Program-made: the position numbers and the translations under genes
Source of the DNA: an uncultured Candidatus Saccharibacteria bacterium
Lineage (GTDB): Bacteria; Patescibacteriota; WWE3; UBA101185; UBA10185
DNA length: 64,000 nt
NCBI GenBank assembly: GCA_964490125.1
Contig: CAZBAJ010000005.1
Location: 4,631 to 68,630, forward strand
Direction of reading: 5' to 3'
Shown: in pieces, positions 1,113 to 47,309 of the stretch
Numbering within the stretch: position 1 is the first letter of the stretch
Layout: each line of letters starts with the position of its first letter
The notes under the pieces: generated by a model
Database searches by the model: none
What the model saw: only the letters and a program-made list of their open reading frames with translations
What the model was told of the DNA's origin: nothing

Positions 1113-1276
1113 GCGGTCACCGGGCGTCAAGTAGACACTTTAGACTGGACCCGTGTGTGGTGAAGATATAAGCCTTGCAATCCGCAAGCATTCTCTCATT
1201 ACACCCGGGTCCTTTTAGTATCTGTGGGATCTATTATTTATAGTCGCACAAAAATAGGCTATTATATTGTCATACT

Positions 1277-5042: not shown

Positions 5043-5058
5043 TTTATACCCCATAGTA

Positions 5059-5089
5059 TTGGACAAAACCCGTTTTTATTGCTATAATG
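5059..5089 (+). promoter_or_regulatory. sigma70-like promoter (TTGGAC/TGGACA -35, TATAAT -10) preceded by the CCCATAGTATTG motif
   Basis: A -35-like hexamer at 5059-5064 and a perfect TATAAT at 5084-5089. The region lies in native AT-rich sequence immediately upstream of the GC-rich CDS. AAGGAG Shine-Dalgarno at 5142-5147. Confidence 0.4.
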
Positions 5090-5154
5090 GGCATATCTAC
5101 GATTGGTAGACTAGCTCTTTGAATCTCAAAAGTAATATCACAAGGAGAAGTGTC

Positions 5155-6168
5155 ATGAAACGCATGTTGGCTGTTCTGTCCGTTCTTCTCGTCCTGTTGG
5201 GGCTAGTTGCCCAGCAGGTGTCGGCATCTGGGCACATCGTTGTCGAGGGCGGTATCAACCGAGTCGAGGGGTTTGTCCCCTTCTCGCGAGACGGTGTTTA
5301 CACTAGCACTGCGAAACCATACGATGTTGTGGTTACAGTGTATAGAACGATACCGCAAGTACCCGATGTAACGATCCGCATCGAAGGTGAGGCAAGCTGG
5401 GTTCCATGGGTTTCTTCCGGAACGGGAAGTGCTGTATGGGAATACGGCACCTGGCATTTCTGGGGGATCCTTTTTCCCACGGATGGCAAGATCGAGGTTG
5501 GACTGCGCGCGCCTGCGCCCCTGGAGACTAAGCGCATCTCCGTGAATGTACAGGATGGGTTTGGGGCATCAGAGTCGCGGACAGCGTATGTGTCGCCAAT
5601 TGGACAACCGCCGACTGCAACACCGACGGCCACCCCAACGCAGACTGGCGTTCCGCCAACGGTAACGCCGACCAGTACTGCCACTCCGACGGCGACACCC
5701 GCACACACGGCAACGCCAACGGCTGAGCCGTTGATCGTGTTAGAAGGTGGGGTTAACTCACAAGAAGGGTTTACACCCCTTGATCCCACCAAACCGATCA
5801 CTGTCACAACTCGGTTCGCGGCCGACATCATCGCCACGGTGTACAACCGGGGCGGGCCTACTGGTGCGCGCATCACCGTTGATGGGTTCAGCGACTGGAA
5901 AGTTGATGTGAGCGGTACAACCGCAAAGCCCGAGTTCTCGGGGACCTTAGGGGATTGGGGGTCGTGGGACCTCGAAGGCACTTGGTCGGGCGAAGGTCCG
6001 ATAGAGATGGTAATCCATGTCAAGTCCCCACCGCCCTACCGCCCCAATCCCGGGTGGACCGTCAATGTGTCGGCGCGCCCCGCAGGCACAGACGACTGGC
6101 AGGTCCGCCAGGCTGTGATCCAGAACAGTCGCTTCGGCCCCATCTACCTGCCTTTTATCGTTCGATAA
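5155..6168 (+). CDS. GC-rich secreted protein with two duplicated domains joined by a Thr/Pro-rich linker
   Basis: ATG at 5155 follows AAGGAG. Signal peptide MKRMLAVLSVLLVLLGLVAQQVSASG. Two homologous domains of about 140 aa (HIVVEGGINRVEGF... and LIVLEGGVNSQEGF...) are separated by a linker (PPTATPTATPTQTGVPPTVTPTSTATPTATP). High GC begins exactly at the start codon. Confidence 0.6.
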   Translation: MKRMLAVLSVLLVLLGLVAQQVSASGHIVVEGGINRVEGFVPFSRDGVYTSTAKPYDVVVTVYRTIPQVPDVTIRIEGEASWVPWVSSGTGSAVWEYGTWHFWGILFPTDGKIEVGLRAPAPLETKRISVNVQDGFGASESRTAYVSPIGQPPTATPTATPTQTGVPPTVTPTSTATPTATPAHTATPTAEPLIVLEGGVNSQEGFTPLDPTKPITVTTRFAADIIATVYNRGGPTGARITVDGFSDWKVDVSGTTAKPEFSGTLGDWGSWDLEGTWSGEGPIEMVIHVKSPPPYRPNPGWTVNVSARPAGTDDWQVRQAVIQNSRFGPIYLPFIVR

Positions 6169-6288
6169 GATTTAGAGAGCAGGCGCCACGCCCCTCACAG
6201 TCACAAATGTATCCCGCTAATTTGGGGGATTACAGATGATTGAGAGGGCGTGGCGTTTTGCGTATCTGGCAGTATAATCAAACAAGCA

Positions 6289-9200
6289 ATGTTAAAAATT
6301 ATCTCATTTTTTAAAACCAATATTTCAGGAATTGTTTTAGTTGTCATTTGCCTCTATATTTGTCGCGCTAATTACACACCCGGCACTTTTTTAACCGGCT
6401 GGGATACTTTGCATCCGGAGTTTAACTACCGCATTTATTTAAGCCGTATTTTGGACGGGGTGTGGCAGGAACATCAGAGTTTGGGGGCGGTGGCTACTCA
6501 AGCCCACGCTAGCGAGATTCCGCGCATTTTAGTGTTAATGCTTTTGGATGTATTTTTGCCCATGAATATGGTTAGGTATGCTTACGCATTTTTGATGTTA
6601 ATTTTAGGTCCTTTGGGGCTGTACGCGTTTATTAAGTATGTGTTAAGGGGCAGGGGTTTTTGGACGGGGGAAGTGGCGGGTTTTGCCGGCGGGTTGTTTT
6701 ACTTGTTTAATCTTGGGACTTTACAGCATTTTTATGTACCACTGGAGATGTTTTTAACTCACTTTGGACTTTTGGGGTGGTTGTTTTTGACCGTGGTGTG
6801 GTTTTTGCGGGAGGGGAGTAAAAAAGCGCTTGTTTGGTTTTCTGTAGTTACGCTTTTTATGACTTCTCAAGCCCACACCGCAACTTTGTTTTATGCTTTT
6901 TTCCTGTATTTGGTGTTATATCTTCTGACATATTTTGTCGCACACAAATGTAACGGCCAAATTTTTAAAAGAGCCGTTCTTATAATCACAGGAACCCTTG
7001 TTATCAATCTATTTTGGTTTCTGCCAAATGTTTATTTTGCAGTTACTCACGGAAAAGAAATTCAGGAGTCAAAAATCCATTTGTTGTTTTCACAAGAGGC
7101 TTTTTTGCAGAATAAAGAGTTTGGAAACATTAAGGATACCGCTTTACTTAAAAGCTTTTTGTTTAATTGGGGGGAGTATGTGGGGAATAACAGATACGGG
7201 GATTTATTGGATGAGTGGAAGTATCACTTACAACAGCCTTTAGTAATTCCTTTGGGTTATGCTTTTTTTGGTATGGCGGTTCTGGGATTGATTATGGCTG
7301 TTGTTAGGCGGGAGAGGGAACTTGTAGGGATTGGACTAATGTTTTTAGTAGGGTTGTTCTTTATTTTTAATGTTAATCCGCCACTTGGGGGTGTTTTTGT
7401 CTGGTTGCAGGATAATATCCCGCTTTTTAAGGAGGCGTTTAGGTTTCCGTTCACTAAATTTTCCATAGGTTTATTGTTCTGCTATGCAGTATTTTTTTCC
7501 TACTTTGTGTCTGTTGTGGTCAAAGTCTTGGGAGGATGGTCTGCCCATCCGACGAATGGGCTTCCCGCCGTAGGCGGGATCGGGACCCGTTTGGCGGGGG
7601 GCAGACCTCCGACCAGAATACTCGCGTGGTTAGGGTTCGTCGTCCTACTTTTTCTGTCCTTCTACTACTATGCCAAACCCATGTTTACCGGCGGATTAAT
7701 AAGCCCAAGTATGCGCGTTGCCATTCCCCAAAGATACTTTGACATGTTTAGCTATTTTGATACCCAAAAGGAGTACGGGCGGGTACTTAATTTGCCAATC
7801 CATTCCATGTGGGGTTGGGTGTATCACAATTGGGATCCGCAAACTACTCTAGGCTATCAAGGCGCGGGTTTTTTGTGGTTTGGTATAAAACAGCCGTTAA
7901 TTAATAGGGAGTTTGACAGGTGGAATCTTACAAATGAAAAACCTTACATGGAAATTTCCACGGCAATTTATTCCGAGGATGTGGCTACGCTGGAAAAGCT
8001 TTTGGATAAGTACAAAATCCGTTGGTTTTTGGTGGACCAAAGTATTGTAGCGCCAGAGCAGGATGTCAAACAGCTTTTTTATCCCCAAATAGAGTCGCTT
8101 CTTAAGTCGTCCCCAAAAATTAAACTGGAGAAAGACTTTGGGGACGGTTTAGCAGTTTACAAATACTTTCCAGACAAGGACTTTGCCCAAAAGGAGTGGC
8201 TCGATACCTATTATATAGCGGGCGACAGCACTTTTAAGGAGCCAAACGACCCTATTTATAACACCTACGGGAATTACGCGGGAAATGACGAAAAGTCTTA
8301 TCCGTTTGTGGGTATTACCAATTACGACGAAAGCGTAAAGCAGGGTTACATTACCAGCGACGCCAAAAACCTATATTTTAATAATGCTTTGGCTTTTTCT
8401 AATTTGTCTGCCAATATTGCCGGCAATCTGTTTCAATACTTGGTTTTTCTGGACAAGGCGGGGGAGAACTACTTATTAAAATTTGAGCCCGTGGAGAAAT
8501 CGCTTGAACTTGGTTTTTCTTATGATTTAGGCAAACTTGATCCAAACATAGTTGGGGTTGCAATAAATAACTCGACGGTTTTGTCTGTTGTCAAACCGCA
8601 GGTGAGGCAAGTAGTGCTTTTGGATCCAAGTCAGCAAGTAAAAATAAGTCAGCTCTCCCAGTCGTCCAACTTACTTACCGACACAGATTTTTTTAGTGCG
8701 CTGGAAAATTGCAGTTTGGTGGGGGAACAAACCTCGTACTCTTTGGAGCGCGTGGAAAACGGCTTTGTGTTGTTGGCGCAAAATGTGGACGCGTGCGTTA
8801 CCGTAAATTTGCAAAACTATTTGGCCGACGATGCCGAGGGCAAGACGAATGGAGCTACAAGCTTAATCCCGGGCGATTCCTGGAGTGCGGGCAGTATCTA
8901 CCAAGTTACAGTAGGTTTAGGTGAAGGTGCGGTTCTAAACAAGCAGGAAGTTTGCGTTTTTGACGATGTTTCTGGACTTTGCGTTAACCCCCCGCTTGCA
9001 GACGGCAAAACATTTTTTACCCCTCTACCAGGCAGAAATTATAGCTTGCGACTCTTCGCTCGTGGTAAAAAGTCACTTGCTAGAGAGGTTAGGGTAGAGT
9101 ATTCCAATCTAGGACTTTATACGCTAAAGAATGAAAAAGAGTCGGCTTTTAAGCCCAACTTAGTCCTGCAAAAAGACTTGGTCTTAAGCAAGTGGCAATT

Positions 9201-10020
9201 TGAAAAAGACCTTAATTATTCCGGCAATGCGTCCACACTTACCAACTACCCCAGGCTTTGTAATACCGGCGCAACCGCGTTTAATAAGTCCAAAATTTCT
9301 GTTATGGGCAGTTTTGGCACGCCCTTTATTAGGTACGAGTCCCACGGGGAGGCTTTGTGCGACTCTTTTGAATTTCCCATGTTTGACCACGCTAGTGGGG
9401 CGGTGTTGGAGGTTCGTTCAAGAAATTTGGCGGGTATGCCGTTAAGACTTTGTTTAACTAATGAGTATTCAAAGCGGTGCGACTTATATGTGTCGCTCAC
9501 CAAAAATGTTGATTTTACCACGCAGTACTTTTTAGTTCCGCCTATGGGCAATGGTAGGGGCTACACGGTAAATTTTAGCAATTTAATTTTTGGGACTTCT
9601 GTAAGCATTAACGACTTGGAATATGTGGCTTTGGTGCCGTTTCCTTACTACTTGGTACGGGGTATTCACAAGCCACTTACTACTGTAGCTGGGCGACTTT
9701 TGGTTTACAACCAAGCCTTTGAAAACGGCTGGATCGCGTGGTGCGGGTTTAAGCCCTGTCGCGCGGAGCATGTTGTGGTGAATAATTGGGCAAATGGTTG
9801 GGTTTTTCCCTCGGTTCAGGGAGACTCGTCGGTTTCGTCCAGCTCGTCGTCCCAACAAGTCGGTCAACCACCTCAAAATCTATCACCGTCGTCCCCAAAT
9901 GTAATTATTTTCTTTTGGCCACAAGTTTTAGAGTATCTTGGTTTTGGCTTTTTAATCGGCTGGTTTGCTTTAGTCGTCCTGCTCCCAAAACTCCAAAATT
10001 ATAAAAAAAGCTTTGACTGA
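6289..10020 (+). CDS. very large polytopic membrane protein with extracytoplasmic domains (GT-C / YfhO- or AftD-like)
   Basis: About 1240 aa from the ATG at 6289. The track ORF begins at a GTG at 6250 that lies inside an upstream hairpin. About 13 N-terminal TM helices, an internal TM pair, a large central/C-terminal soluble region and a C-terminal anchor helix. Carries an in-frame GC-rich palindromic insertion at about 7537-7610. Confidence 0.5.
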   Translation: MLKIISFFKTNISGIVLVVICLYICRANYTPGTFLTGWDTLHPEFNYRIYLSRILDGVWQEHQSLGAVATQAHASEIPRILVLMLLDVFLPMNMVRYAYAFLMLILGPLGLYAFIKYVLRGRGFWTGEVAGFAGGLFYLFNLGTLQHFYVPLEMFLTHFGLLGWLFLTVVWFLREGSKKALVWFSVVTLFMTSQAHTATLFYAFFLYLVLYLLTYFVAHKCNGQIFKRAVLIITGTLVINLFWFLPNVYFAVTHGKEIQESKIHLLFSQEAFLQNKEFGNIKDTALLKSFLFNWGEYVGNNRYGDLLDEWKYHLQQPLVIPLGYAFFGMAVLGLIMAVVRRERELVGIGLMFLVGLFFIFNVNPPLGGVFVWLQDNIPLFKEAFRFPFTKFSIGLLFCYAVFFSYFVSVVVKVLGGWSAHPTNGLPAVGGIGTRLAGGRPPTRILAWLGFVVLLFLSFYYYAKPMFTGGLISPSMRVAIPQRYFDMFSYFDTQKEYGRVLNLPIHSMWGWVYHNWDPQTTLGYQGAGFLWFGIKQPLINREFDRWNLTNEKPYMEISTAIYSEDVATLEKLLDKYKIRWFLVDQSIVAPEQDVKQLFYPQIESLLKSSPKIKLEKDFGDGLAVYKYFPDKDFAQKEWLDTYYIAGDSTFKEPNDPIYNTYGNYAGNDEKSYPFVGITNYDESVKQGYITSDAKNLYFNNALAFSNLSANIAGNLFQYLVFLDKAGENYLLKFEPVEKSLELGFSYDLGKLDPNIVGVAINNSTVLSVVKPQVRQVVLLDPSQQVKISQLSQSSNLLTDTDFFSALENCSLVGEQTSYSLERVENGFVLLAQNVDACVTVNLQNYLADDAEGKTNGATSLIPGDSWSAGSIYQVTVGLGEGAVLNKQEVCVFDDVSGLCVNPPLADGKTFFTPLPGRNYSLRLFARGKKSLAREVRVEYSNLGLYTLKNEKESAFKPNLVLQKDLVLSKWQFEKDLNYSGNASTLTNYPRLCNTGATAFNKSKISVMGSFGTPFIRYESHGEALCDSFEFPMFDHASGAVLEVRSRNLAGMPLRLCLTNEYSKRCDLYVSLTKNVDFTTQYFLVPPMGNGRGYTVNFSNLIFGTSVSINDLEYVALVPFPYYLVRGIHKPLTTVAGRLLVYNQAFENGWIAWCGFKPCRAEHVVVNNWANGWVFPSVQGDSSVSSSSSSQQVGQPPQNLSPSSPNVIIFFWPQVLEYLGFGFLIGWFALVVLLPKLQNYKKSFD

Positions 10021-10039
10021 AGTGTAATATAATATTCAC

Positions 10040-10258
10040 ATGAAAAAAGCACGCAAAACATTGTACGGAAACATGGTTGCTATTATTCAACCCGCGGAGG
10101 AGGGGGGTTTTTATGCCTACTGTCCTTCTTTACCCGGTTGTGCCAGCCAGGGAGAAACTTATGCTCAAACTGTAGAAAATATTACGGAGGCAATTCAGGG
10201 CGTGCTGTACTATTCTGCCAGGAGCTTAATAAAGTCAAAAGTCTTATGCGCCTTCTGA
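10040..10258 (+). CDS. HicB-like (UPF0150 family) small protein, orphan
   Basis: AIIQPAEEGGFYAYCPSLPGCASQGETYAQTVENITEAIQ matches the HicB/UPF0150 core. No HicA partner seen. The 3' end overlaps the convergent vapC. Confidence 0.4.
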   Translation: MKKARKTLYGNMVAIIQPAEEGGFYAYCPSLPGCASQGETYAQTVENITEAIQGVLYYSARSLIKSKVLCAF

Positions 10259-10641
10259 TAGAACAGGCCGTCTGCAGTTACATAATTACACCCCATCTTT
10301 TTTGCCAACGCTAAGAAGATACAGTCGTACACTGCTGTCTCTCCAAGCACCGATGATAGTTCAAAAGCCTGTTTTAATAACGGTGTGTCTTCTTTTATAT
10401 AAATAAAGTCAGCGTTATCAAATGTCTTAATTATTTCGGTAATTTGGTCGTTGCTTAATATTCCCCATTTAGCTTTTTTAGTTAATGTAGAGATAAACTC
10501 TATTTTTGCTAGATTTGGGCAATAGATCTTTGTTTTAGCATTTTCCAGCTTTTCCAACAGAACCAACGCAAGATGAGAATCGTCTTCTTGTAAGAATATT
10601 TTTACTAGAACACTAGTATCCAGTACGGTCTTAGATGTCAT
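10210..10641 (-). CDS. vapC: PIN-domain ribonuclease toxin VapC
   Basis: N-terminal VLDTSVLV acidic motif. A conserved D/E pattern follows. 143 aa. Confidence 0.7.
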   Translation of the reverse strand: MTSKTVLDTSVLVKIFLQEDDSHLALVLLEKLENAKTKIYCPNLAKIEFISTLTKKAKWGILSNDQITEIIKTFDNADFIYIKEDTPLLKQAFELSSVLGETAVYDCIFLALAKKMGCNYVTADGLFYQKAHKTFDFIKLLAE

Positions 10642-10774
10642 GTCCCCTAAATTTCCTTATAATGGGGACAGAACTTTCAGACACCTTTAAAGTTTTTGCA
10701 TAGGCCACAGCGCCACGCAACACCTTCCAATTTACATCTTTATTTGTAATTCTTTTTCTTGCTACTTTTTCCAT
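10624..10774 (-). CDS. small putative antitoxin (50 aa) overlapping the vapC start
   Basis: My manual translation of the minus strand gives MEKVARKRITNKDVNWKVLRGAVAYAKTLKVSESSVPIIRKFRGHDI. It is below the ORF-track size cutoff. An overlap of about 17 nt with vapC is classic antitoxin-toxin coupling. Confidence 0.35.
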
Positions 10775-10978
10775 GTTTTTGTTTTATCACAAACTATTTT
10801 ATTTGTCTAATTGTCAAGTACGGTGTAGTCACTAATCGTCATGCTCTCTGATTTTCCTTATTATGGGCAAGGAAGCTGGTGTAACGGGCATAGTCGCCAA
10901 ATGGTTTCTTATCATAGCCATCATTTTTTTATTGTCTTTAATTGGTCTTTTCATGACTCACTTTTACCACAAGGTTTG

Positions 10979-11752
10979 TCATTTGCCCAAGATATCTTTG
11001 GCGTAACTTATGGCGTTTTTTGCCATGGGTAGGGTGATATTTTGATACTGGGCGGGAATTTCGTTAACGCTATAGCCTGCTTCAACAAGCCCAAGAATAT
11101 CTGCCACCGTGATACGAGTGCCTTTAATGACGGGTTTCCCAAACCTAATGTTTTGATCCACGCCCACATACTTATTTTGTAGTTTTTGCATAGACGGATT
11201 ATACACCGTTTTCCTAATTTCTTGGACTTTTTTCTGATCCACGGCCAGAGGATTGCCCAGGTAATATTTTGGTTTGTAGTATAGCAGATCCGCTAAGGCC
11301 CTCTCCGGGGTAGCTTGTGAAAATGTCTCCTTGTCCTCTATACCCGCTCTATTTACTAGATACTCTGGTTTTAATTGTTTGCATCTCACTATTTTGTCGC
11401 CATATTTTATGGTTTGACTTTTTTGACCAGCCAAAACAACGGGAGTTATATTTTGGAACATTGCACCCGCCTTGCTTAGTACCGTTTCCAGCGTAATGTA
11501 CGACAGGGGACCGCACAGGGTGCAGGCAACCTCGTAGTCACTAAGCCTGCTAAGCGGGAGTTTGGAGTACACGCCTTTTTTTACTCTATATAACTTGGCG
11601 TCTGCTACATAGCGCTTAATGGTAGTCCAAAGGGTATTTTTGTCTTGAATGTCCCATAAAACCCCTAGATCTTTAGTGGTAAAGATATTTTTAGGCGTTT
11701 CTATTAGTGTTTGTAGTTTTTTAGTCCTGTACATTATTGTACAGGATAACAC
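10979..11752 (-). CDS. AbiEi-like N-terminal domain fused to a C-terminal DUF433 domain
   Basis: The N-terminus (TKKLQTLIETPKNIFTTKDLGVLWDIQDKNTLWTTIKRYVADAKLYRVKKGVY) resembles the AbiEi antitoxin wHTH. The C-terminus (GKPVIKGTRITVADILGLVEAGYSVNEIPAQY) is a DUF433 signature. Confidence 0.5.
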   Translation of the reverse strand: MLSCTIMYRTKKLQTLIETPKNIFTTKDLGVLWDIQDKNTLWTTIKRYVADAKLYRVKKGVYSKLPLSRLSDYEVACTLCGPLSYITLETVLSKAGAMFQNITPVVLAGQKSQTIKYGDKIVRCKQLKPEYLVNRAGIEDKETFSQATPERALADLLYYKPKYYLGNPLAVDQKKVQEIRKTVYNPSMQKLQNKYVGVDQNIRFGKPVIKGTRITVADILGLVEAGYSVNEIPAQYQNITLPMAKNAISYAKDILGK

Positions 11753-11889
11753 AACCTGTTCGTGGTGTCAAGACACTGTACTAGTTGCAGATCTATTAAA
11801 GAGATAATTCAGTATCTATTTAAAAAGCGTGAGATAATGAAATAAGTCAAGTTCAAGCAAGAGTCGCCAAAAACCGACAACCTATAGTA

Positions 11890-11918
11890 TTGACATAGTC
11901 TACCGAGTAGGTTACAAT
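11890..11918 (+). promoter_or_regulatory. strong sigma70-like promoter TTGACA-N17-TACAAT with upstream CCTATAGTATTG motif
   Basis: TTGACA at 11890-11895, a 17-nt spacer, TACAAT at 11913-11918. Predicted TSS near 11925. A 5-bp hairpin plus T7 tract follows at 11931-11952. Confidence 0.5.
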
Positions 11919-11983
11919 GATAATTGTTTGAGGCTGGTATACAGCCTTTTTTTGTAAATTCCACCTGCCTAAAAAAATATATT

Positions 11984-13456
11984 ATGCCGTTTGGTAAAAA
12001 TAGTGCCAATAAAAACGCAGGTTTGCAAACAAAACGCGTAAAATTACCCGTTGCGTTTTTGGTAGTCGTGCTTGCCGTGCTTGAAACAGTAAGCTTTGCC
12101 ATGGTTTTTAAGACTCACAAAACACATTTAGATACCCTTACCAGTTTAATGGGCGACAAGTTGGAGTCGGATGACAGAGAACAGATCAAGGGTGAAACTG
12201 ACGAGCAACAGGAGCAAGGATATACACAGAACGACCCGGGTTCGTGGTTTTGGCGCAATTCGCAAAGTCAAACAAAACTAGCTGCCAATAAAGATAATAA
12301 CAATAGCGAGGACAAAAAAGAGGGGAGTAATAAAAACAAAAAGGAGCCTAAGGGTAAAAAGAAGGTTGTACCTCCGGTCAATCCGGCAAATCAACTTCCC
12401 AGTGTGACAATAGACCTTGGTTTAGAGGGAAAAAGCTTTAAATACGGAGAAACTGTGTCAATAGCTGTCACTTCTACCGACTTTGATGGGGTGGTGCGGG
12501 AGCTTAGCCTTGTTGTTAACGACATTGTTAATGAGACTGTTGTAACATCGTCCCACATTTTTAACCTAGAATCCCTGCCGTTAGGTGTGTATAGGATTTA
12601 TGCTAAAGCTCTTGACGACAAGGGGGGAGAGGGAGTTTCCAGGACGATTACGATTTATGTTGACCCGCTTAACGCGTTTGACCCGGATATTTCTGAACCT
12701 ATTTCTGAGCCCATTTCGGATAGTATTTCCTCTGTTATTTCAGATACCGTGTCGGCAATAGTGTCCGAACCCATTTCTGAGGCAATTTCGGAGGCTCTAA
12801 GTACCGATGTTTCCAGTATTATTAGCGACATTATTTCTACACCTGTTTCCGATACCATATCATCGACAATGTCCGAAGCCATTAGCGATGTTGTCTCTAC
12901 GCCATTGTCGGATGAAATAAGTGACACGGTTTCAGCAGTGATTTCGGATGTCCTGAGTTCGGATATTTCCAACATTGTAAGCGATGTAGTTTCCACTCCC
13001 ATTTCGGATACCATATCAACGATAGTGTCCGACGCTATCAGCAATGTTGTCTCCACGCCATTGTCGGATGTAATAAGCGATGCGATCTCATCGGTAATTT
13101 CGGGTGATATATCCCAAACCATATCGTCCATACTTTCTAGCGACCTTTCTAGTGCGATTAGTGCGCCAATATCGCAAATCCTATCCCAAGATCTTTCGGC
13201 AGGCATATCGGACGCCGTATCCGATTTAATTTCCGATGTCCTAAGTACCGAAATATCCGATGTTTTGAGTGACGCGGTATCGACAGCTCTATCTGATACT
13301 GTCAGCGGGGTCATTTCTCAAGTTGTAAGTAGTCCTATTTCTGTTGTAATCAGCGATACACTGTCGACTCCTGTTTCGGGAACCTTATCGTCAGTAATCT
13401 CTGATGCTACTAGCGAGTCAGTTTCCGACTTTATTTCTACATTGTTAAGCCATTAA
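11984..13456 (+). CDS. membrane-anchored Ser-periodic tetrapeptide-repeat protein, (S-x-x-I/V/L) about 58 units
   Basis: ATG at 11984 (MPFGKNSANK...) followed by a signal-anchor helix. The track start at TTG 11924 coincides with the predicted TSS. Lys/Glu-rich spacer, a beta-rich domain of about 90 aa, then an uninterrupted array SEPISEAISEALSTDVSSIISDIISTPVSDTIS... with Ser every 4th and an aliphatic residue every 4th position, running to the C-terminus. Confidence 0.7.
   Translation: MPFGKNSANKNAGLQTKRVKLPVAFLVVVLAVLETVSFAMVFKTHKTHLDTLTSLMGDKLESDDREQIKGETDEQQEQGYTQNDPGSWFWRNSQSQTKLAANKDNNNSEDKKEGSNKNKKEPKGKKKVVPPVNPANQLPSVTIDLGLEGKSFKYGETVSIAVTSTDFDGVVRELSLVVNDIVNETVVTSSHIFNLESLPLGVYRIYAKALDDKGGEGVSRTITIYVDPLNAFDPDISEPISEPISDSISSVISDTVSAIVSEPISEAISEALSTDVSSIISDIISTPVSDTISSTMSEAISDVVSTPLSDEISDTVSAVISDVLSSDISNIVSDVVSTPISDTISTIVSDAISNVVSTPLSDVISDAISSVISGDISQTISSILSSDLSSAISAPISQILSQDLSAGISDAVSDLISDVLSTEISDVLSDAVSTALSDTVSGVISQVVSSPISVVISDTLSTPVSGTLSSVISDATSESVSDFISTLLSH
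12686..13447 (+). repeat. degenerate 12-nt (4-codon) tandem repeat inside the CDS
   Basis: Repeating units of the form tcNgaNNNNatN/tcNNNNgtN across about 760 nt. Codons vary between units, so this is not recent slippage, but the S-x-x-aliphatic period is strict. The antisense ORF 12655-13314 is an artefact of this repeat. Confidence 0.8.
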
Positions 13457-13488
13457 CTTGGCGTTACTATATTGTTAGATACTAATTT

Positions 13489-15336
13489 ATGTCATCAAAA
13501 ACAAACATCTTGGATAAGGCTTTGTGGGCGGTTTGGATTTTAATTTGCGTCGGTCAGGCGGTTGTTTTTAGTGGCGCCTACATAAGTGTCTACGATCTTC
13601 CAAAGATCCTAGTTTTGTGCGGGGGTATTTGCGGGCTTTGTTTTTTACTGCTTGTTAAGCGTCAAACAAAGGTAAGTATCGCGTTACTTTACACTCTGGG
13701 TATTTTTATTGCTCTAGTCGCCTTTAATATGGTTTTTTCCACCAATAGGTACAGGTCGTTTTGGGGCGATAAAGTCTACAACGACAGTTTTTTAGCCTTT
13801 ATTCTCTATTTTGTATTGCTAGCTTTGGTGTCGTTTGACCTACTTAAGACAAAGACCATTCTCGCTGGAATAAACTTATTAGGACTTCTTGTGGCAATTT
13901 CTGGTCTAATTCACGCTTATTTACTTTACATTCTTAAGCTTGACATTGTTTCGTACGACGGGCGTATTACTGGAACAATCGGGCAGGCAAATATCCTTGG
14001 GGGAATATTAGTTGCCGTTTTGCCGGTATCTATTTTGCTGTTTACCCGGTCAACCAGGCTTTTACACAAGATTTCTTATGCCGTTAGCGCCTTAATTATT
14101 TTTGCTTGTTTGCTGGTTTCCATGTCCAGGGGCGCTTTTTTGGCTTTAGGAGTGTTGGCTCTGGTGGAAATTGTTGTTAGGTTGAAAAGGGCTAAGTGGC
14201 GATTGGTGTTTTTAATGCTTGTTACAGCGTTTATTGCCGGTTTATTTTTTGTTCCAAAGGATTTAATAGCAAATTCAAAGTCGCCCTACCTTATTAGACG
14301 CTTTTTTTCTTTTAGAGATGGAAATAAGCTTTCTGACATTAGGTTTGAGATTTGGAAAAACTCCATTCCCGCGATTGCTAAAAAACCCTTAACAGGGTGG
14401 GGAAACGCAACTTTTCAAAATGTCTACCAGATGCACATAAATCCCACAAACGCCAATCAGACCCTTTTTAAGGAGGTGGAGACATCTCACAACATTGTCA
14501 TAGACGCCCTTTTGGAGTGGGGAATTGTGGCGTTTCTAGTTGTTTTGGTAGGAGTAGTCGTACTTGCTAACAAGTCGTCCGCTCCAAAACTGGTCAAATA
14601 CGGCTTATTGGCGGTGTTCATAAGGAGTCTTATTAACATAAATTCCGGTATAGTTTGGTTCTTATTTTTTGTCTATGTGGGTTTGTTGGTGCGGGACTTT
14701 AGGGGCAGGCAGTTTGACTTAGTGGGGAAGCGTTTGTTGGCGGTTTGGGTGACACTTTTTGCCCTTTCTGTGGCGATTTTTTGGTTGTTTATTAATTTTG
14801 GTCGGGCAGAGGTCTATGAAAAAAAGGCTCTAAAAGAGGGCGACGCCAGTAAGTCGGCGGAATACTACAAAACCGCTTTAAGCCATAATCCGTATAAAGA
14901 ATCGTTGTGGGGCAGTTATTTAGCGTTGTTGCTCTGGAAAGGGGATTTAACCCAGTTTGAACAGACGCTAAAGACGGTCGACACGCATTTTAATGACTAC
15001 CGTGGTAATTTTTACGCCGGGCTTTACTACATGCGACTAGGGGAGACCCACAAGGCTGTTGATCGCTTTAATACCGCCTATAAGCTAAACGCCAGGGATC
15101 CAAAAACTACCCACTATTTGGGACAATTGTATTATTCTCTGGGCGACCATTCTAGGGCGGAACAGATGTTCTTGTACACTGTCAACCTGGATGTTAGGAA
15201 CTTCAACGACGATTATATTTACCTTTGCGACATTGAGATAAGGCGGGGGGATTACAAGAAAGCCAGGAAGTACATGGAACAAGCCCCGGATTCGTCTAGG
15301 AAAGACTATTACGACAACCTCCTTAGGGGGCATTAG
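13489..15336 (+). CDS. Wzy_C-family (O-antigen ligase / PglL-like O-oligosaccharyltransferase-like) membrane protein with C-terminal TPR repeats
   Basis: About 12 TM helices with a periplasmic loop containing an ...SMSRGAFLALGV... Wzy_C-type motif. The C-terminal 180 aa form TPR-like helical repeats. Lies immediately downstream of the Ser-repeat protein. Confidence 0.55.
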   Translation: MSSKTNILDKALWAVWILICVGQAVVFSGAYISVYDLPKILVLCGGICGLCFLLLVKRQTKVSIALLYTLGIFIALVAFNMVFSTNRYRSFWGDKVYNDSFLAFILYFVLLALVSFDLLKTKTILAGINLLGLLVAISGLIHAYLLYILKLDIVSYDGRITGTIGQANILGGILVAVLPVSILLFTRSTRLLHKISYAVSALIIFACLLVSMSRGAFLALGVLALVEIVVRLKRAKWRLVFLMLVTAFIAGLFFVPKDLIANSKSPYLIRRFFSFRDGNKLSDIRFEIWKNSIPAIAKKPLTGWGNATFQNVYQMHINPTNANQTLFKEVETSHNIVIDALLEWGIVAFLVVLVGVVVLANKSSAPKLVKYGLLAVFIRSLININSGIVWFLFFVYVGLLVRDFRGRQFDLVGKRLLAVWVTLFALSVAIFWLFINFGRAEVYEKKALKEGDASKSAEYYKTALSHNPYKESLWGSYLALLLWKGDLTQFEQTLKTVDTHFNDYRGNFYAGLYYMRLGETHKAVDRFNTAYKLNARDPKTTHYLGQLYYSLGDHSRAEQMFLYTVNLDVRNFNDDYIYLCDIEIRRGDYKKARKYMEQAPDSSRKDYYDNLLRGH

Positions 15337-15364
15337 CAGGTCAGGTTTGCTTAAGCCCATAGTA

Positions 15365-15393
15365 TTGACAGAACTAGAAAAGTAGGCTACAAT
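15365..15393 (+). promoter_or_regulatory. strong sigma70-like promoter TTGACA-N17-TACAAT with upstream CCCATAGTATTG motif
   Basis: TTGACA at 15365-15370, a 17-nt spacer ending AGTAGGC, TACAAT at 15388-15393. Shares the extended AGTAGGYTACAAT and CCYATAGTATTGACA with the promoter at 11890. Confidence 0.5.
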
Positions 15394-15448
15394 TAGCCTT
15401 GTTAGCAGTTAGCTAAGTATTAAATTATCCTGCCAAATAAAGGTAAAT

Positions 15449-16060
15449 ATGACTAAAAGCGTTAACTACAAGTTAATAGGTGCCTTAGTAGTAGCCAGTT
15501 CCGTAGGTGTGTTAAGTGGTGGAGTAGCCTATGCCGGTTGTACTTCTAACTACGGTGGTGGTCAAACCTGTATCTACAACAAAAACTTTGACATTGAGAA
15601 AAAGGTTAGAAAGTTAGGGGACGACTCCTGGAAGGATAAAGTAACCGGAGTTGACGAGGGTGAAGTTGTAGAATTTAAGATAAAGGTAAAAAATGAAGGG
15701 GAAGTTAGTGTAGATGACATGAAAATGTCTGATAAACTTCCTAAAGAGATGGAAAGAGTTGGCGGAGACGGTTTGACCGAATATTGGGACGACTTTGATG
15801 CTGGCGAGACCAAAACCTTTATTATAAAGGCTAAGGTTAAAGACAGCGAGTACGATAGAAAAAACTTTGAGAAGTGTGTGGTCAACAAAGCCGAGGTTTT
15901 GTACGACGGTGATGATGAGGCTTCTGATACCGCTACTGTGTGTTACAGCGACGGTGCTCCTACCGAGTTACCTAAAACTGGTGGAAGCTCCTTGTTTTAC
16001 GGGTTTCTTGGTTTAGGTCTTACAGCTTTTGGCGCTTTTGCTAAAAAGCTAAAAAAGTAA
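15449..16060 (+). CDS. LPXTG-type cell-surface protein (sortase substrate)
   Basis: N-terminal signal peptide. C-terminal sorting signal LPKTGG followed by a hydrophobic stretch and a KKLKK tail. The central acidic beta-rich domain resembles DUF11. Confidence 0.65.
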   Translation: MTKSVNYKLIGALVVASSVGVLSGGVAYAGCTSNYGGGQTCIYNKNFDIEKKVRKLGDDSWKDKVTGVDEGEVVEFKIKVKNEGEVSVDDMKMSDKLPKEMERVGGDGLTEYWDDFDAGETKTFIIKAKVKDSEYDRKNFEKCVVNKAEVLYDGDDEASDTATVCYSDGAPTELPKTGGSSLFYGFLGLGLTAFGAFAKKLKK

Positions 16061-16135
16061 AACGACCAAACCAATCCTGTTAATCTCGTGATTATATGTT
16101 GACACGCGGGTCCGCTTTGATTTGACTTGGAAAAA

Positions 16136-16203
16136 CTTAGACCTAGGGTGGAGGGGAGTGGTTTGCCGTACAGCTTACTAGCCCCTTCCATCCTAGGTCT
16201 AAG
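16136..16203. other. long imperfect inverted repeat (about 21-bp arms, 25-nt loop) in the substrate-sortase intergenic region
   Basis: cttagacctagggtggagggg ... ccccttccatcctaggtctaag. Upstream at 16105-16119 is cgcgggtccgctttg, a truncated relative of the GC-rich element family. Downstream is a CAA-rich tract. Confidence 0.5.
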
Positions 16204-16304
16204 TGTCGCCATGCTACGGTACGCTAATGGCAACAGCAACACTAACAACAACAATAAGTGACGACATTTAAACATAAATTTTTCCAAATGCAATATGTAA
16301 TACT

Positions 16305-17012
16305 ATGACAAATATTTTAGCCAACAGAAAACTATCGACTGGGATTTTAGGAGGCATAGCATTTGTATTTGCTGTAGTTTTATTCTCCAAGTTATTCTTA
16401 AAGACAAATAACATCGGAGGATTTGCTGTTTGGGTTAATTCTTTTGGGAAAACTATTACCAATAAATTGGGTTTGGGGGATAGTACATCGACTTTTGGTA
16501 AAAATTCAGGCAAAGAGGCAAATCCATCCGTTTTTAAAGAAGTCGCAAAACCTGTTTATTTGTCGCCCAAAACTATTACTTTTAAGGATAAAACTTTAGA
16601 TGTGGAGGAAATTGGCGTGGAACAAGGCGGAATACTAGGTGTGCCTTCCGGTTGGTATACTGCAGGTTGGTATAAGGACGGGGCAAAAGCAGGAGAGGAA
16701 GGCAATGTAATTATTGACGGTCATTACGATACTAATACCGGCGCGCCCGGCGCGTTTTGGGAGTTGAAAGATCTACAAGTTGGTGATAAAGTGTCGTTAA
16801 CGGACTTATTAGGTCGCAGATTTGATTATAAAGTCAAAGAAAAGTCGTCAATAGCCATTACCGATCCCGAAAGAGCCAAAGTTTTTGCAAGTTCGCAAGC
16901 TAAAGAGTTAACTTTAATTACTTGCGGAGGCGTTTGGGACTATGCCAGTGGAACTTACAACAAGCGACTTGTAATTAAAGCGGAATTTGATAAGATGGAA
17001 AAAAGTTGGTAG
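16305..17012 (+). CDS. sortase (transpeptidase)
   Basis: N-terminal TM anchor. Catalytic His region (IDGHYDT). TLxTC motif (LTLITCGG). Downstream Arg. Confidence 0.75.
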   Translation: MTNILANRKLSTGILGGIAFVFAVVLFSKLFLKTNNIGGFAVWVNSFGKTITNKLGLGDSTSTFGKNSGKEANPSVFKEVAKPVYLSPKTITFKDKTLDVEEIGVEQGGILGVPSGWYTAGWYKDGAKAGEEGNVIIDGHYDTNTGAPGAFWELKDLQVGDKVSLTDLLGRRFDYKVKEKSSIAITDPERAKVFASSQAKELTLITCGGVWDYASGTYNKRLVIKAEFDKMEKSW

Positions 17013-21334: not shown

Positions 21335-22051
21335 ATGACAAATGAAGAAATTACTCTCCACGCCTTAGAGTTTGCCAAAAAGAATAAACTCCGCATAGCC
21401 AGAGAATTGACCGATCCAAGTAAATATAAGCCTACAGACCATCCCGTCTCTGTTTTTATGGCAGGTTCTCCTGGGGCGGGTAAGACGGAATTTTCTAAAA
21501 ATCTTGCTAAAGATTTACATAAAGGTGAAGGCATCAATGTTGTTCGGATTGACGGGGATGATTTAAGACCATATATGCCGGGTTATACAGGAAGTAACTC
21601 TCACCTATTCCAGGGTGCCGTTTCTTTAATTGTTGAGAAGATGCAAGATTTAGTATTACATACAGGGCAAAACTTTATTCTGGATGGAACTTTCTCTAGT
21701 TATCGTAAAGCTACCGAAAACATCAATCGCTCCTTGTCTAAGGGCAGGGTTGTTTCAGTTTTTTACTTGTATCAAAGACCTGAAATAGCTTGGAAGTTTA
21801 CCCAGGCGCGTGAAAAAGCAGAAGGTAGAAACATTCCCAAAACAGCCTTTATTAGTCAATTTTCTGAGGCTAGAGAAACAATTGAGAACCTAATTTTGAA
21901 TTATGGTGGTCTTATTAAGATAACTCTTGTGGCTAAAGACTTTGAGAATAAAACAATCGATCTTGTTGAAATTGCGGACAATGCGACAAAAATTGACGGT
22001 GTTACTTTTGCTCGTTATAATGAGCGAGAATTAGAAAGTTTATTAAAATGA
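21335..22051 (+). CDS. zeta-toxin-like P-loop kinase family protein
   Basis: Walker A (FMAGSPGAGKTEF) with the zeta/AAA_33-like layout. ATGA overlap with the next small ORF. Confidence 0.55.
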   Translation: MTNEEITLHALEFAKKNKLRIARELTDPSKYKPTDHPVSVFMAGSPGAGKTEFSKNLAKDLHKGEGINVVRIDGDDLRPYMPGYTGSNSHLFQGAVSLIVEKMQDLVLHTGQNFILDGTFSSYRKATENINRSLSKGRVVSVFYLYQRPEIAWKFTQAREKAEGRNIPKTAFISQFSEARETIENLILNYGGLIKITLVAKDFENKTIDLVEIADNATKIDGVTFARYNERELESLLK

Positions 22052-31138: not shown

Positions 31139-31166
31139 TTGACATTATTTTCTAAAGAGGTATTAT
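31139..31166 (+). promoter_or_regulatory. promoter TTGACA-N16-TATTAT directing a leaderless ArsR-family mRNA
   Basis: TTGACA at 31139-31144 and TATTAT at 31161-31166. The ATG of the regulator at 31174 lies about 7 nt downstream of the -10. Confidence 0.45.
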
Positions 31167-31173
31167 GTTTGTC

Positions 31174-47271: not shown

Positions 47272-47299
47272 TTGACAAAATACATTTAATGTATATAAT
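47272..47299 (+). promoter_or_regulatory. promoter TTGACA-N16-TATAAT directing a leaderless RHH-antitoxin mRNA
   Basis: TTGACA at 47272-47277 and TATAAT at 47294-47299. ATG at 47310. Confidence 0.45.
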
Positions 47300-47309
47300 G
47301 CAATACATT

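What the first reader, a model, noticed from the sequence alone, without database searches (positions are those of the whole stretch)
5045..15393. Three surface/secreted-protein genes share an extended promoter motif CCYATAGTATTG(G)ACA ... AGTAGGYTACAAT
The promoters in front of the GC-rich secreted protein (5045-5089), the Ser-repeat protein (11880-11918) and the LPXTG protein (15350-15393) all carry CC(C/T)ATAGTATTGACA, an 8-9-nt conserved block immediately 5' of and including the -35. Two of them also share AGTAGG(T/C)TACAAT across the spacer/-10. This goes beyond generic sigma70 consensus. It suggests an UP-like or activator site that co-regulates exported and surface proteins, possibly an ECF-sigma or cell-envelope regulon.
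Basis: seen in the sequence. Interest (0 to 1): 0.55.

Follow-up and report, generated by a model that had tools for sequence, protein, structure and literature searches.

The report
Shared promoter box for surface-protein genes
Three genes for exported or cell-surface proteins in this uncultivated (WWE3/Patescibacteria-type) bacterium have near-perfect standard promoters carrying an extra 7-base box, CCYATAG, just upstream of the -35 element. Relatives conserve this box as strictly as the promoter core, so it is probably a real control element for the cell's surface coat.

Summary
CCYATAGTATTG occurs exactly three times in the window (5050, 11881, 15356) against 0.01 expected. These are the three best sigma-70-type promoters in the region, each upstream of and co-directional with a gene for an exported protein.

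The shared part resolves into CCYATAG, then a 2-3 nt variable linker, then the -35 hexamer. AGTAGGY is a separate TA(R)G block at -17..-14.

I fetched 12 orthologous promoters of the LPXTG/DUF11 gene through the protein, not through the motif. Protein identity ran from 54 to 100%. All 12 keep the box at about 2 bits per position, while the sequence 5' of it, the linker and most of the spacer are randomised.

Relatives carry 1-3 such promoters per 20 kb. All precede proteins with a hydrophobic N-terminus: 14/14 against 46/122 for other promoters.

The rplJ-rplL promoter and the other TTGACA promoters in the window lack the box, so it is not a generic UP element.

The hexamers are housekeeping-type, so the ECF-sigma idea is not supported.

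Best reading: a lineage-wide cis-element for a factor that contacts RNA polymerase at the -35. An RNAP-intrinsic strength element is the main rival. No TSS, expression or binding data are available.

The parts
5050..5056 (+). CCCATAG box of site 1, at about -45..-39 with a 3-nt linker (tat)
   Evidence: The orthologous promoter in L138 (position 4528) keeps CCTATAG-tt-TTGACT.
5060..5088 (+). Core promoter of site 1: -35 TGGACA (5060-5065), 17-nt spacer with TG at 5080-5081, -10 TATAAT (5083-5088). The inferred TSS is near 5095.
   Evidence: 11 of 12 matches, TG present. The TSS is inferred, not mapped.
5155..6168 (+). Gene for a secreted protein: signal peptide MKRMLAVLSVLLVLLGLVAQQVSA, two similar domains joined by a Pro/Thr-rich linker. 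No Pfam or NCBIfam hit.
   Evidence: An ortholog lies in L138 4614-5108.
11881..11887 (+). CCTATAG box of site 2 (-44..-38, 2-nt linker)
   Evidence: The L010 ortholog has CCCATAG. The L012 ortholog has GACTTAG, so the CC is lost there.
11890..11918 (+). Core promoter of site 2: -35 TTGACA (11890-11895), 17-nt spacer ending GTAGGT (11907-11912; TAGG at -17..-14), -10 TACAAT (11913-11918)
11930..11955 (+). Leader hairpin GAGGCTGGTATACAGCCTT followed by a run of T, about 12 nt after the -10 of site 2. Its role is unresolved: attenuator, 5' stabiliser or short RNA.
   Evidence: Top terminator-like hit. The fold is -12.5 kcal/mol. The hairpin is kept with compensatory changes in L010 and L012.
11984..13456 (+). 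Gene for a membrane-anchored protein with long Ser-rich repeats. ATG 11984 is the likely start; an in-frame TTG at 11924 is also possible.
   Evidence: weak ser_rich hit; internal DNA repeats D1/D2
15356..15362 (+). CCCATAG box of site 3 (-44..-38, 2-nt linker)
   Evidence: It is conserved in 12 of 12 orthologous promoters fetched through the protein.
15365..15393 (+). Core promoter of site 3: -35 TTGACA (15365-15370), 17-nt spacer ending GTAGGC (15382-15387), -10 TACAAT (15388-15393). The inferred TSS is near 15400.
15429..15437 (+). Leader box CCTGCCAAA, 11 nt before the ATG (the CCTGCC core is 14 nt before it). A similar CCTGCC lies at 11964-11969, 14 nt before the ATG of the site-2 gene.
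   Evidence: It is present in most of the DUF11 ortholog leaders examined.
15449..16060 (+). Gene for a DUF11/CLIPPER-domain surface protein with a signal peptide and a C-terminal LPKTG sorting signal. This is the family's best-conserved target gene.
16305..17012 (+). Sortase gene (class-F-like). It gives context and has no box of its own.
   Evidence: The gene order DUF11-sortase-rho-LysM/M23-obg holds in all relatives.

Best explanation
The three sites are genuine housekeeping-type (sigma-70/sigmaA) promoters of near-consensus strength. They belong to a promoter class conserved across WWE3/Katanobacteria-like Patescibacteria.

The class-defining feature is a 7-bp box, CCYATAG. It sits at a fixed register 2-3 bp upstream of the -35 hexamer, at about -44 to -38.

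The class drives genes for abundant exported proteins:
- the sortase-anchored DUF11/CLIPPER protein;
- a Ser-repeat membrane protein;
- a Pro/Thr-linker secreted protein;
- other small signal-peptide or membrane-anchored proteins in relatives.

These genes sit among glycosyltransferase, Wzy_C and sortase genes that themselves lack the box.

My preferred mechanism is inferred, not shown. The box would be the docking site of a trans-acting protein that touches RNA polymerase at sigma region 4 or alpha-CTD. That protein could be a class-II-type activator or an alpha-CTD-bound cofactor in the manner of Spx. It would co-ordinate high expression of the surface coat.

The second shared block, AGTAGGY, is a TA(R)G variant of the Gram-positive TRTG extended -10. 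It is a separate, gene-specific strength element.

What is shown: the box is real, it is under selection as strong as that on the hexamers, its register is fixed, it is specific to this class, and it is associated with exported proteins.

What is inferred: the TSS positions, high expression, and the existence and identity of the binding factor.

Rough split of confidence:
- functional conserved cis-element: about 0.9
- specific to an exported-protein gene set: about 0.75
- read by a dedicated trans-factor rather than by RNAP alone: about 0.5
For: 1. Non-chance. There are 3 exact copies of a 12-mer against 0.01 expected.

2. Selection. Twelve DUF11-gene promoters were fetched via protein homology (54-100% identity): window, L010, L012, L013, L136, L138, L140, L142, L143, L145, L148, L149. 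All have C[CT]YATAG followed by 2-3 nt and then TTGAC. In the first 11 of them, information content is 1.2-2.0 bits at the seven box positions. It is at most 0.8 bits in the 25 nt upstream and low in the linker and the first 11 spacer positions.

3. Fixed register. The linker is 2 nt in 14 sites and 3 nt in 5 sites, and never 0, 1 or 4-7 nt.

4. Class-specific.
- The rplJ-rplL promoter has TTGACA-N17-AACAAT but no box.
- The ArsR, toxin-antitoxin, GH57 and HTH_17 gene promoters also have TTGACA but no box.
- Other promoters of the lineage show no C enrichment at -44/-43.

5. Target genes.
- 14 of 14 box promoters precede proteins with a hydrophobic N-terminus, against 46 of 122 other first-in-operon genes (Fisher 4e-6). 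These represent about 5-8 independent gene families.
- The site-1 ortholog in L138 keeps the box.
- More distant sortase substrates (28-31% identity: L072 and L044, plus the LAATG protein of L045) also carry it.

6. Independent element.
- CCYATAG is about 5-fold denser in intergenic than in coding DNA.
- Extra copies occur in spacers (L142 4855, L143 9894) and as a palindromic pair (L145 9723).

7. Metagenome scan. Among 108 distinct YATAGTATTGACA-N17-TAMAAT promoters, CC is the commonest preceding dinucleotide (26 of 108).

8. Composition. The invariant G:C pairs argue against a minor-groove, A-tract alpha-CTD site. UP subsites are A/T-rich (PMC2613000).
Against: - No TSS, expression or binding data exist, and no candidate regulator could be linked to the box.
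- Only 7 bp are conserved, with no clear dyad or repeat partner. This is short for a classical dimeric regulator.
- The -35 and -10 are already consensus, so an activator seems unnecessary.
- The box turns over in some non-DUF11 orthologs. L012 site 2 has GACTTAG. The L142 site-1 ortholog has CGTAGG upstream and CCTATAGTA in the spacer.
- The association test counts orthologs that are not independent.
- Only about 20 kb per relative was available, so genome-wide target lists and rRNA, tuf or groEL promoters could not be checked.
- A phage-like contig (L071) carries three such promoters. An unrelated GC-rich organism has one before rpsL (L070). Both hint at recognition by RNAP itself.
Confidence: 0.5

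Rival explanations
1. RNAP-intrinsic 'super-promoter' element. CCYATAG is read directly by RNA polymerase, through alpha-CTD at the proximal UP position or through an extended sigma region-4 contact. It simply raises the strength of promoters for the most abundant proteins, which in these tiny cells happen to be surface proteins. No dedicated regulator and no regulon logic are involved.
For: - The box occupies exactly the proximal UP-subsite position (-45..-37 in the numbering of PMC2613000) at a fixed 2-3 nt register.
- It always accompanies a consensus -35 and a good -10 with a 17-nt spacer.
- A phage-like contig has three co-directional copies (L071). Phage early promoters usually rely on host RNAP alone.
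- A GC-rich unrelated organism has the same 15-mer before rpsL (L070).
- Many unrelated metagenomic promoters share ATAGTATTGACA.
Against: - The box is not A/T-rich, has two invariant C's, and has no distal A/T-rich subsite.
- It is absent from the rplJ-rplL promoter and from every other TTGACA promoter in the window.
- Other lineage promoters show no preference for it.
- Extra copies lie in spacers and away from any -35.
Confidence: 0.3
2. Repressor or switch operator. Because these promoters are already consensus-strength, CCYATAG, together with the extra copies in some spacers, is the operator of a repressor. That repressor would shut off or phase-vary the surface coat by blocking sigma4 or alpha-CTD access.
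For: - Consensus hexamers need no activation.
- Additional CCYATAG(TA) copies lie between the -35 and -10 in L142 4855 and L143 9894. A palindromic pair lies at L145 9723.
- TAGG at -17..-14 is the reverse complement of CCTA. This gives an imperfect inverted pair flanking the -35 and spacer in the DUF11 promoters.
Against: - The only universally conserved copy lies upstream of the -35, not over the -35, -10 or TSS where most repressors act.
- The spacer copies and TAGG are not conserved across the class. L149 lacks TAGG, and most non-DUF11 members have ordinary TG or nothing.
- The half-site centres would be about 26 bp apart, on opposite faces of the helix.
Confidence: 0.1
3. Alternative sigma factor. 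The composite motif is the recognition sequence of a second sigma, either an ECF sigma as the first reader suggested or a group-2 RpoD paralogue dedicated to envelope genes.
For: The gene set is envelope-related, and the flanks of both hexamers are conserved in the DUF11 promoters. Group-2 sigmas read housekeeping-like hexamers with subtle flank preferences (own knowledge).
Against: - The hexamers TTGACA / TAYAAT with a 17-bp spacer are the housekeeping consensus. They are unlike the ECF -35 GGAAC/AAC and -10 CGT motifs (own knowledge).
- No Sigma70_r2/r4 protein or anti-sigma was found among the window ORFs scanned.
- The -10-proximal block is not shared by all class members.
Confidence: 0.05
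4. No function beyond the hexamers. The three promoters are copies of one ancestral promoter cassette, and the shared flank is a relic of duplication or gene conversion.
For: - Within a genome, copies can be more alike than required. The two L010 sites share 27 nt.
- The site 2 and site 3 leaders share a CCTGCC box at the same distance from the ATG.
Against: - The box is invariant in orthologs whose proteins have diverged to 54% identity and whose flanking intergenic sequence is randomised.
- The register is fixed.
- It occurs before unrelated genes in many genomes.
Confidence: 0.03

Closest known systems
Proximal UP-element subsite (alpha-CTD site, e.g. E. coli rrnB P1)
   Same: Same location: -45 to -37 with the -35 hexamer numbered -35..-30 (PMC2613000). 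It abuts the -35 at a fixed register and is found on very strong promoters.
   Different: UP subsites are A/T-rich tracts read in the minor groove. This box has two invariant C's and a G, has no A/T-rich distal partner, and is missing from the ribosomal-protein promoter in the same window.
Spx/alpha-CTD cis-element AGCA at -45..-42 (B. subtilis trxA, trxB, nfrA)
   Same: A short G/C-containing element just upstream of the -35, at the same coordinates, marks a regulon. It is read by a small cofactor bound to alpha-CTD rather than by a classical dimeric regulator (PMC2801614; PMC8501982). This is the closest analogue for how the box might work.
   Different: The sequence differs (AGCA against CCYATAG) and so does the regulon (thiol stress against surface proteins). 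Spx-dependent promoters have an A-rich -41..-36 stretch. No Spx/ArsC-family gene was looked for or found here.
Class II activator sites (CRP/FNR-type, centred near -41.5)
   Same: The box centre is at about -41, directly abutting the -35, and spacing is constrained to within 1 bp.
   Different: Class II sites are usually 14-22 bp dyads at promoters with poor -35 hexamers (own knowledge). Here only 7 bp are conserved, there is no dyad partner, and the -35 is consensus.
TRTG / TGn extended -10 ('-16 region') of Gram-positive promoters
   Same: The AGTAGGY block puts T at -17, A (a purine) at -16 and G at -14. These are the positions of the TRTG motif (PMC12641261; Voskuil and Chambliss, cited in PMC2613000).
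   Different: Position -15 is a purine (TA[G/A]G) rather than T. Other promoters of the same lineage show the ordinary T-15 G-14. The variant is largely confined to the DUF11 and Ser-repeat gene promoters.
S-layer-type high-expression cassettes (e.g. Lactobacillus slpA: strong promoter plus 5'-UTR stem-loop). Cited from my own knowledge, not tested here.
   Same: A very strong promoter precedes the gene for the main surface protein, and small stem-loops lie at the 5' end of the predicted leaders.
   Different: As far as I know, no conserved box at -44 shared among several surface-protein genes has been described for those systems. The leader hairpins here are not statistically distinctive.

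Membership tests
Sigma-70/sigmaA housekeeping promoter | -35 TTGACA-like and -10 TATAAT-like hexamers separated by 16-18 bp | tested here: met
   All three score 11 of 12 with 17-bp spacers and are the top three sites in 4800-16400.
Sigma-70/sigmaA housekeeping promoter | Intergenic, upstream of and co-directional with a gene | tested here: met
   The same holds for every box promoter in relatives.
Sigma-70/sigmaA housekeeping promoter | Transcription starts about 7 nt downstream of the -10 | not testable with these tools
   No RNA 5'-end data are available.
UP element (alpha-CTD site) | Located at -45..-37 (proximal subsite) | tested here: met
   The box lies at -44..-38, or -45..-39 with a 3-nt linker (positions from PMC2613000).
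UP element (alpha-CTD site) | A/T-rich A- or T-tract sequence | tested here: not met
   The consensus CCYATAG has invariant C, C and G, and there is no A/T enrichment in the 25 nt upstream.
UP element (alpha-CTD site) | General feature of the organism's strongest housekeeping promoters (rRNA, ribosomal proteins) | tested here: not met
   The rplJ-rplL promoter has TTGACA but no box. rRNA promoters were not available.
UP element (alpha-CTD site) | Bound by alpha-CTD | not testable with these tools
   This needs footprinting or in-vitro transcription with alpha lacking its CTD.
ECF-sigma promoter | -35 with a GGAAC/AAC core and -10 with a CGT core | tested here: not met
   The hexamers are TTGACA/TGGACA and TACAAT/TATAAT. 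The ECF consensus is from my own knowledge.
ECF-sigma promoter | Cognate sigma/anti-sigma pair nearby, usually autoregulated | tested here: not met
   No Sigma70_r2/r4 hit among about 50 window ORFs scanned with Pfam. The rest of the genome was not seen.
Class II activator site | Site abuts or overlaps the -35, centred near -41.5 | tested here: met
   The box centre is at about -41 and the linker is 2-3 nt only.
Class II activator site | Dyad-symmetric 14-22 bp site | tested here: not met
   Only 7 bp are conserved and the sequence 5' of the box is randomised.
Class II activator site | Identified cognate regulator | not tested
   The only regulators seen in the window are MerR_1-like (27760-28449, minus strand), ArsR-like (31165-31476) and HTH_17 (51892-52776). 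None is linked to the box.
Extended -10 (TRTG/TGn) | T-17, R-16, T-15, G-14 immediately 5' of the -10 | tested here: inconclusive
   T-17, A-16 and G-14 are invariant in 11 of 12 DUF11 promoters, but -15 is G or A rather than T. Site 1 has a classical TG.
Spx-type -45..-42 element | AGCA at -45..-42, read by the Spx/alpha-CTD complex | tested here: not met
   The position matches but the sequence does not (PMC2801614). The presence of an Spx homologue was not tested.

The most novel reading that the evidence does not exclude
CCYATAG is the operator of a dedicated, lineage-wide regulator, or of an alpha-CTD-docking cofactor. This factor switches the whole sortase-anchored and glycosylated surface coat of WWE3/Patescibacteria on or off as one regulon, for example in response to host contact. 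It would be the first cis-regulatory code described for the cell surface of these episymbiotic, uncultivated bacteria. It may also be mimicked by their phages (L071).
Probability: 0.3. Interest if true: 0.7.

Novelty: new variant of a known kind. Interest (0 to 1): 0.5.

Why it matters
Almost nothing is known about transcriptional control in Candidate Phyla Radiation/Patescibacteria. The one cross-phylum promoter study I found includes a single CPR species, with 188 inferred start sites (PMC12641261). A search for the sequence itself returned nothing relevant.

The cell surface is thought to be where these tiny bacteria meet their hosts.

A short box conserved as tightly as the -35 and -10 would mark the genes for their main exported and sortase-anchored proteins. 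It would offer three things:
- a way to predict the abundant surface proteome from sequence alone;
- a handle for finding the factor that reads it;
- a ready-made strong native promoter for the genetic tools now being developed for this group.

If the box proves to be read by RNAP itself, it would be an unusual non-A/T proximal upstream element.

Tried and rejected
- **Generic UP element or local promoter consensus.** Rejected. The other TTGACA promoters (rplJL, ArsR, TA, GH57, HTH_17) lack the box, and the lineage-wide promoter profile shows no such preference.
- **ECF-sigma promoter.** Rejected on hexamer sequence and on the absence of a sigma/anti-sigma gene.
- **Larger repeat, MITE or duplicated cassette.** Similarity is confined to about 40 bp.
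- **Known RNA family in the leaders or in loci downstream of the motif.** Rfam at gathering thresholds found only tRNAs.
- **Phage origin.** Two viral-contig scans with the composite motif found nothing. One metagenomic contig with phage-like genes does carry three copies.
- **TA(R)G and CCYATAG as one obligatory bipartite site.** Rejected. TA(R)G is missing from site 1, L149 and most non-DUF11 members. Its co-occurrence with CC in the metagenome hits (9 of 26 against 1 of 82) is explained by DUF11 orthology.
- **An upstream tandem promoter using YATAGT as a -10.** Unlikely. It would have no -35 and would put C's where the lineage prefers G at -14.
- **Resemblance to the NrdR box, CIRCE, LexA, CtsR and PhoP boxes.** Considered from memory only. 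None fits the conserved positions.
- **Literature.** No paper contained the sequence in a relevant context, and none described Patescibacteria promoter motifs.
- **Organism name of the window.** Not recoverable. The WWE3/Patescibacteria assignment rests on the names attached to homologues.
- **Wzy_C-TPR gene as a synteny anchor.** It gave only four homologues. The DUF11 protein was the useful anchor.

Full report
**1. The observation**

- Site 1: 5050 CCCATAG-tat-TGGACA-N17-TATAAT 5088.
- Site 2: 11881 CCTATAG-ta-TTGACA-N11-GTAGGT-TACAAT 11918.
- Site 3: 15356 CCCATAG-ta-TTGACA-N11-GTAGGC-TACAAT 15393.

The shared 12-mer CCYATAGTATTG occurs exactly three times in the 64-kb window on both strands. 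The expectation is 0.01, and none of 100 shuffles reached three. The repeat finder reports the same three copies (family D8).

Relaxing the 15-mer to three mismatches adds only two hits, both inside or antisense to ORFs and without a -10.

A three-way alignment shows that the similarity is limited to the roughly 40-bp promoter plus short leader boxes. This is not a larger repeat or mobile element.

The consensus scan ranks these three as the best sigma-70-type sites in 4800-16400, at 11 of 12 matches with 17-nt spacers.

**2. The genes**

Each site lies upstream of and co-directional with a gene for an exported protein.
- 5155-6168 has a typical signal peptide and a Pro/Thr-rich linker.
- 11984-13456 has an N-terminal membrane anchor and long Ser-rich repeats.
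- 15449-16060 has a signal peptide, a DUF11/CLIPPER domain and a C-terminal LPKTG sorting signal. A sortase gene follows at 16305-17012.

The neighbours are two PMT_2-type glycosyltransferases (1277-5042), a 1256-aa membrane protein and a Wzy_C-TPR protein (13489-15336). The region therefore looks like a surface-glycoprotein cluster. The box sits only in front of the structural proteins, not the enzymes.

Homologues of the DUF11 protein carry the names 'candidate division WWE3' and 'Patescibacteria group bacterium'. The window's own organism name could not be recovered.

**3. Is it just the local promoter consensus?**

Promoter-like sites with a consensus TTGACA also precede these genes, and none has CCYATAG:
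- rplJ-rplL (59899-60768);
- an ArsR-like gene (31165);
- a toxin-antitoxin pair (47289);
- a GH57 gene (54482);
- an HTH_17 gene (51892).

Most other genes have only a -10-like hexamer, often 6-11 nt before the start codon.

I pooled 74 box-free TAnAAT sites from intergenic regions of the window and ten relatives. They show an ordinary weak T-15/G-14 and TTG at -35, and no C enrichment at -44/-43.

**4. Conservation in relatives (unbiased set)**

I fetched orthologous loci through proteins, not through the motif.

The Wzy_C-TPR protein gave:
- a 72%-identical relative (L010/L011) with the exact motif at both orthologous places;
- 57-58% relatives (L012-L015) with the motif after the Wzy gene.

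The DUF11 protein has hundreds of homologues. I looked up seven of them at 54-78% identity: L136, L138, L140, L142, L143, L145-147 and L148. I then added an eighth, L149.

All of these loci keep the gene order DUF11-sortase-rho-LysM/M23-obg. All of them have C[CT]YATAG, a 2-3 nt linker, TTGAC(A/G/T), a 17-nt spacer and TAnAAT.

In the first 11 promoters the aligned information content is as follows:
- 2.0, 1.6, 1.2, 2.0, 2.0, 2.0, 2.0 bits across the box;
- at most 0.8 bits in the 25 nt 5' of it;
- low in the linker and the first 11 spacer positions;
- 2 bits again at T-17, A-16, G-14 and in the hexamers.

The box is therefore under selection as strong as that on the core promoter, and it is a unit separate from the -35.

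Over 227 kb of such loci the linker is 2 nt in 14 sites and 3 nt in 5 sites. It is never 0, 1 or 4-7 nt. Site 1 of the window, with its 'extra G', is simply a 3-nt-linker member with -35 TGGACA.

**5. More members and their targets**

Relatives carry one to three box promoters per 20 kb. Examples:
- L138 897, leading to a 245-aa Pro/Ala-rich membrane protein after a 400-nt leader;
- L138 4528, leading to the ortholog of the window's site-1 protein;
- L143 9183, leading to a 172-aa membrane-anchored protein;
- L145 1242, L148 8497, L136 8715 and L149 2371.

With a crude hydrophobic-N-terminus criterion, 14 of 14 box promoters precede exported or membrane-anchored proteins. The figure is 46 of 122 for other first-in-operon genes (Fisher 4e-6). 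Orthologs are not independent, so the real sample is about 5-8 gene families.

CCYATAG is about five times denser in intergenic than in coding DNA: 29 in 30 kb against 40 in 216 kb. Additional copies occur in spacers (L142 4855, L143 9894) and as a palindromic pair (L145 9723).

The box is not immutable outside the DUF11 gene. The site-2 ortholog in L012 has GACTTAG. The site-1 ortholog in L142 has CGTAGG upstream and CCTATAGTA in the spacer.

**6. Wider distribution**

I made one metagenome scan for YATAGTATTGACA-N17-TAMAAT.

Among the 108 distinct sequences, CC was the commonest preceding dinucleotide, at 26 of 108. The CC subset contains:
- many DUF11 orthologs;
- two DUF11-like sortase substrates only 28-31% identical to the window protein (L072, L044);
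- an LAATG-anchored protein (L045);
- a few cases that do not fit the surface theme, including L070 (rpsL in a 59% GC organism), L017, L025 and L079.

Contig L071 has three co-directional copies and phage-like genes.

Two scans of the viral collection with the composite motif found nothing.

**7. The second block**

AGTAGGY places T-17, A-16, G/A-15 and G-14 in front of the -10.
- It is present in 11 of 12 DUF11 promoters and in site 2.
- It is absent from site 1 (classical TG), from L149 and from most other class members.
- It also occurs without any -35 or box before the PMT_2 gene, as ATAGGCTATTAT at 1254-1265.

I read it as a variant of the Gram-positive TRTG extended -10. I do not read it as half of a bipartite site.

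**8. Mechanism**

With the -35 numbered -35..-30, the box lies at -44..-38. This is the position of the proximal UP subsite (-45..-37; PMC2613000), of class II activator sites, and of the Spx/alpha-CTD element AGCA at -45..-42 (PMC2801614).

Five points favour a sequence-specific trans-factor contacting RNAP at the -35:
- its G:C content;
- its absence from the ribosomal-protein promoter;
- its strict register;
- its occurrence as extra copies elsewhere in promoters;
- its restriction to a functional gene set.

Four points keep an RNAP-intrinsic strength element as a serious rival:
- the box is short and has no dyad partner;
- it always accompanies already-consensus hexamers;
- it appears on a phage-like contig;
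- it appears before rpsL in another organism.

A repressor operator is possible. An alternative or ECF sigma is unlikely, because the hexamers are housekeeping-type and no sigma gene is nearby. A functionless duplication relic is excluded by the conservation pattern.

**9. What is not known**

- There is no TSS or expression data.
- No factor has been identified.
- There is no genome-wide target list, because only about 20 kb per relative could be read.
- No rRNA, tuf or groEL promoters from this lineage were seen.

**10. Comparison and novelty**

These are members of the sigma-70 promoter family (features met). They are not ECF promoters (features not met). The box is not a canonical UP element: the position is met, but the composition and housekeeping distribution are not.

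The closest functional analogue is the Spx-type -45..-42 element.

I found no description of this box, nor of any Patescibacteria promoter motif beyond core elements.

I rate it a new variant of a known kind, with moderate interest.

Noticed in passing
window 11930-11955; L010 3903-3925; L012 ~140-165: A terminator-like hairpin plus a T-run sits about 12 nt after the -10 of the Ser-repeat gene promoter, inside its leader. The stem is kept through compensatory changes in two relatives. It could be an attenuator, a 5' stabiliser or the end of a roughly 30-nt RNA. L028 and L096 show a similar box promoter followed by a hairpin and T-run.
   Followed up: partly
window 15429-15437 and 11964-11969; leaders in L010, L136, L138, L140, L142, L145, L148: A leader box (Y)CCTGCCAAA is conserved in most of the DUF11 gene leaders examined. 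It lies 14 nt (measured from the CCTGCC core) before the ATG in the window, and 60-130 nt before it in some relatives. A similar box sits in the Ser-repeat gene leader. It is not a Shine-Dalgarno sequence, and its function is unknown.
   Followed up: partly
window, e.g. genes starting at 28532, 43081, 47289, and 34798(-), 27701(-), 62783(-): Many genes have a -10-like hexamer ending 6-7 nt before the start codon, with no -35 and no room for a ribosome-binding site. Leaderless mRNAs therefore seem common in this genome. In L010 an ATG lies 5 nt after the -10 of the site-2 promoter.
   Followed up: no
window 1254-1265: ATAGGCTATTAT carries the same TAGG-type extended -10 as sites 2 and 3. It lies 11 nt before the PMT_2 glycosyltransferase gene (1277), with no -35 and no CCYATAG box.
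   Followed up: partly
L071 (Ga0315906_10004601) positions 11165, 5383, 2796 (minus strand); L091 positions 626 and 209; L039: A low-GC freshwater contig with phage-like genes (phrog_1383 virion structural protein, phrog_23242) carries three co-directional CCTATAG-NN-TTGAC promoters before small ORFs. A related contig has two copies 417 bp apart. This may be a phage using the same promoter class. The host is unknown.
   Followed up: partly
L070 (GC 0.59), motif 141 nt before rpsL: An unrelated GC-rich organism has CCCATAGTATTGACA-N17-TACAAT in front of ribosomal protein S12. This is either chance in a very large database or a hint that the flank has value for RNAP in general.
   Followed up: no
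window 1277-17012: The cluster combines two PMT_2 glycosyltransferases, a 1256-aa polytopic protein, a Wzy_C-TPR protein, Ser-rich and Pro/Thr-rich exported proteins, an LPKTG protein and a class-F-like sortase. This looks like a dedicated surface O-glycoprotein assembly locus.
   Followed up: partly
L012-L014 vs window 15356-15470: In relatives whose Wzy_C-TPR protein is only 57-58% identical, the DUF11 promoter, the leader and the first codons are almost identical to the window at the DNA level. The cause could be very strong constraint or recent exchange of this gene between lineages.
   Followed up: no
window 27760-28449 (-), and the same position in L011, L136, L138, L142, L143, L146, L148: A 220-230-aa MerR_1-like protein is conserved in synteny a few genes downstream of the DUF11-sortase-rho block, next to the TPR protein and dprA. 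It is the only regulator consistently near the cluster, and nothing links it to the box.
   Followed up: no
window 10210-11752 (-), 21335-22051, 42403-42849, 44942-45346, 47289-48001: There are several toxin-antitoxin-type genes: four PIN-domain proteins, a DUF433 protein and a Zeta toxin. They are scattered through the window, one pair directly upstream of site 2.
   Followed up: no
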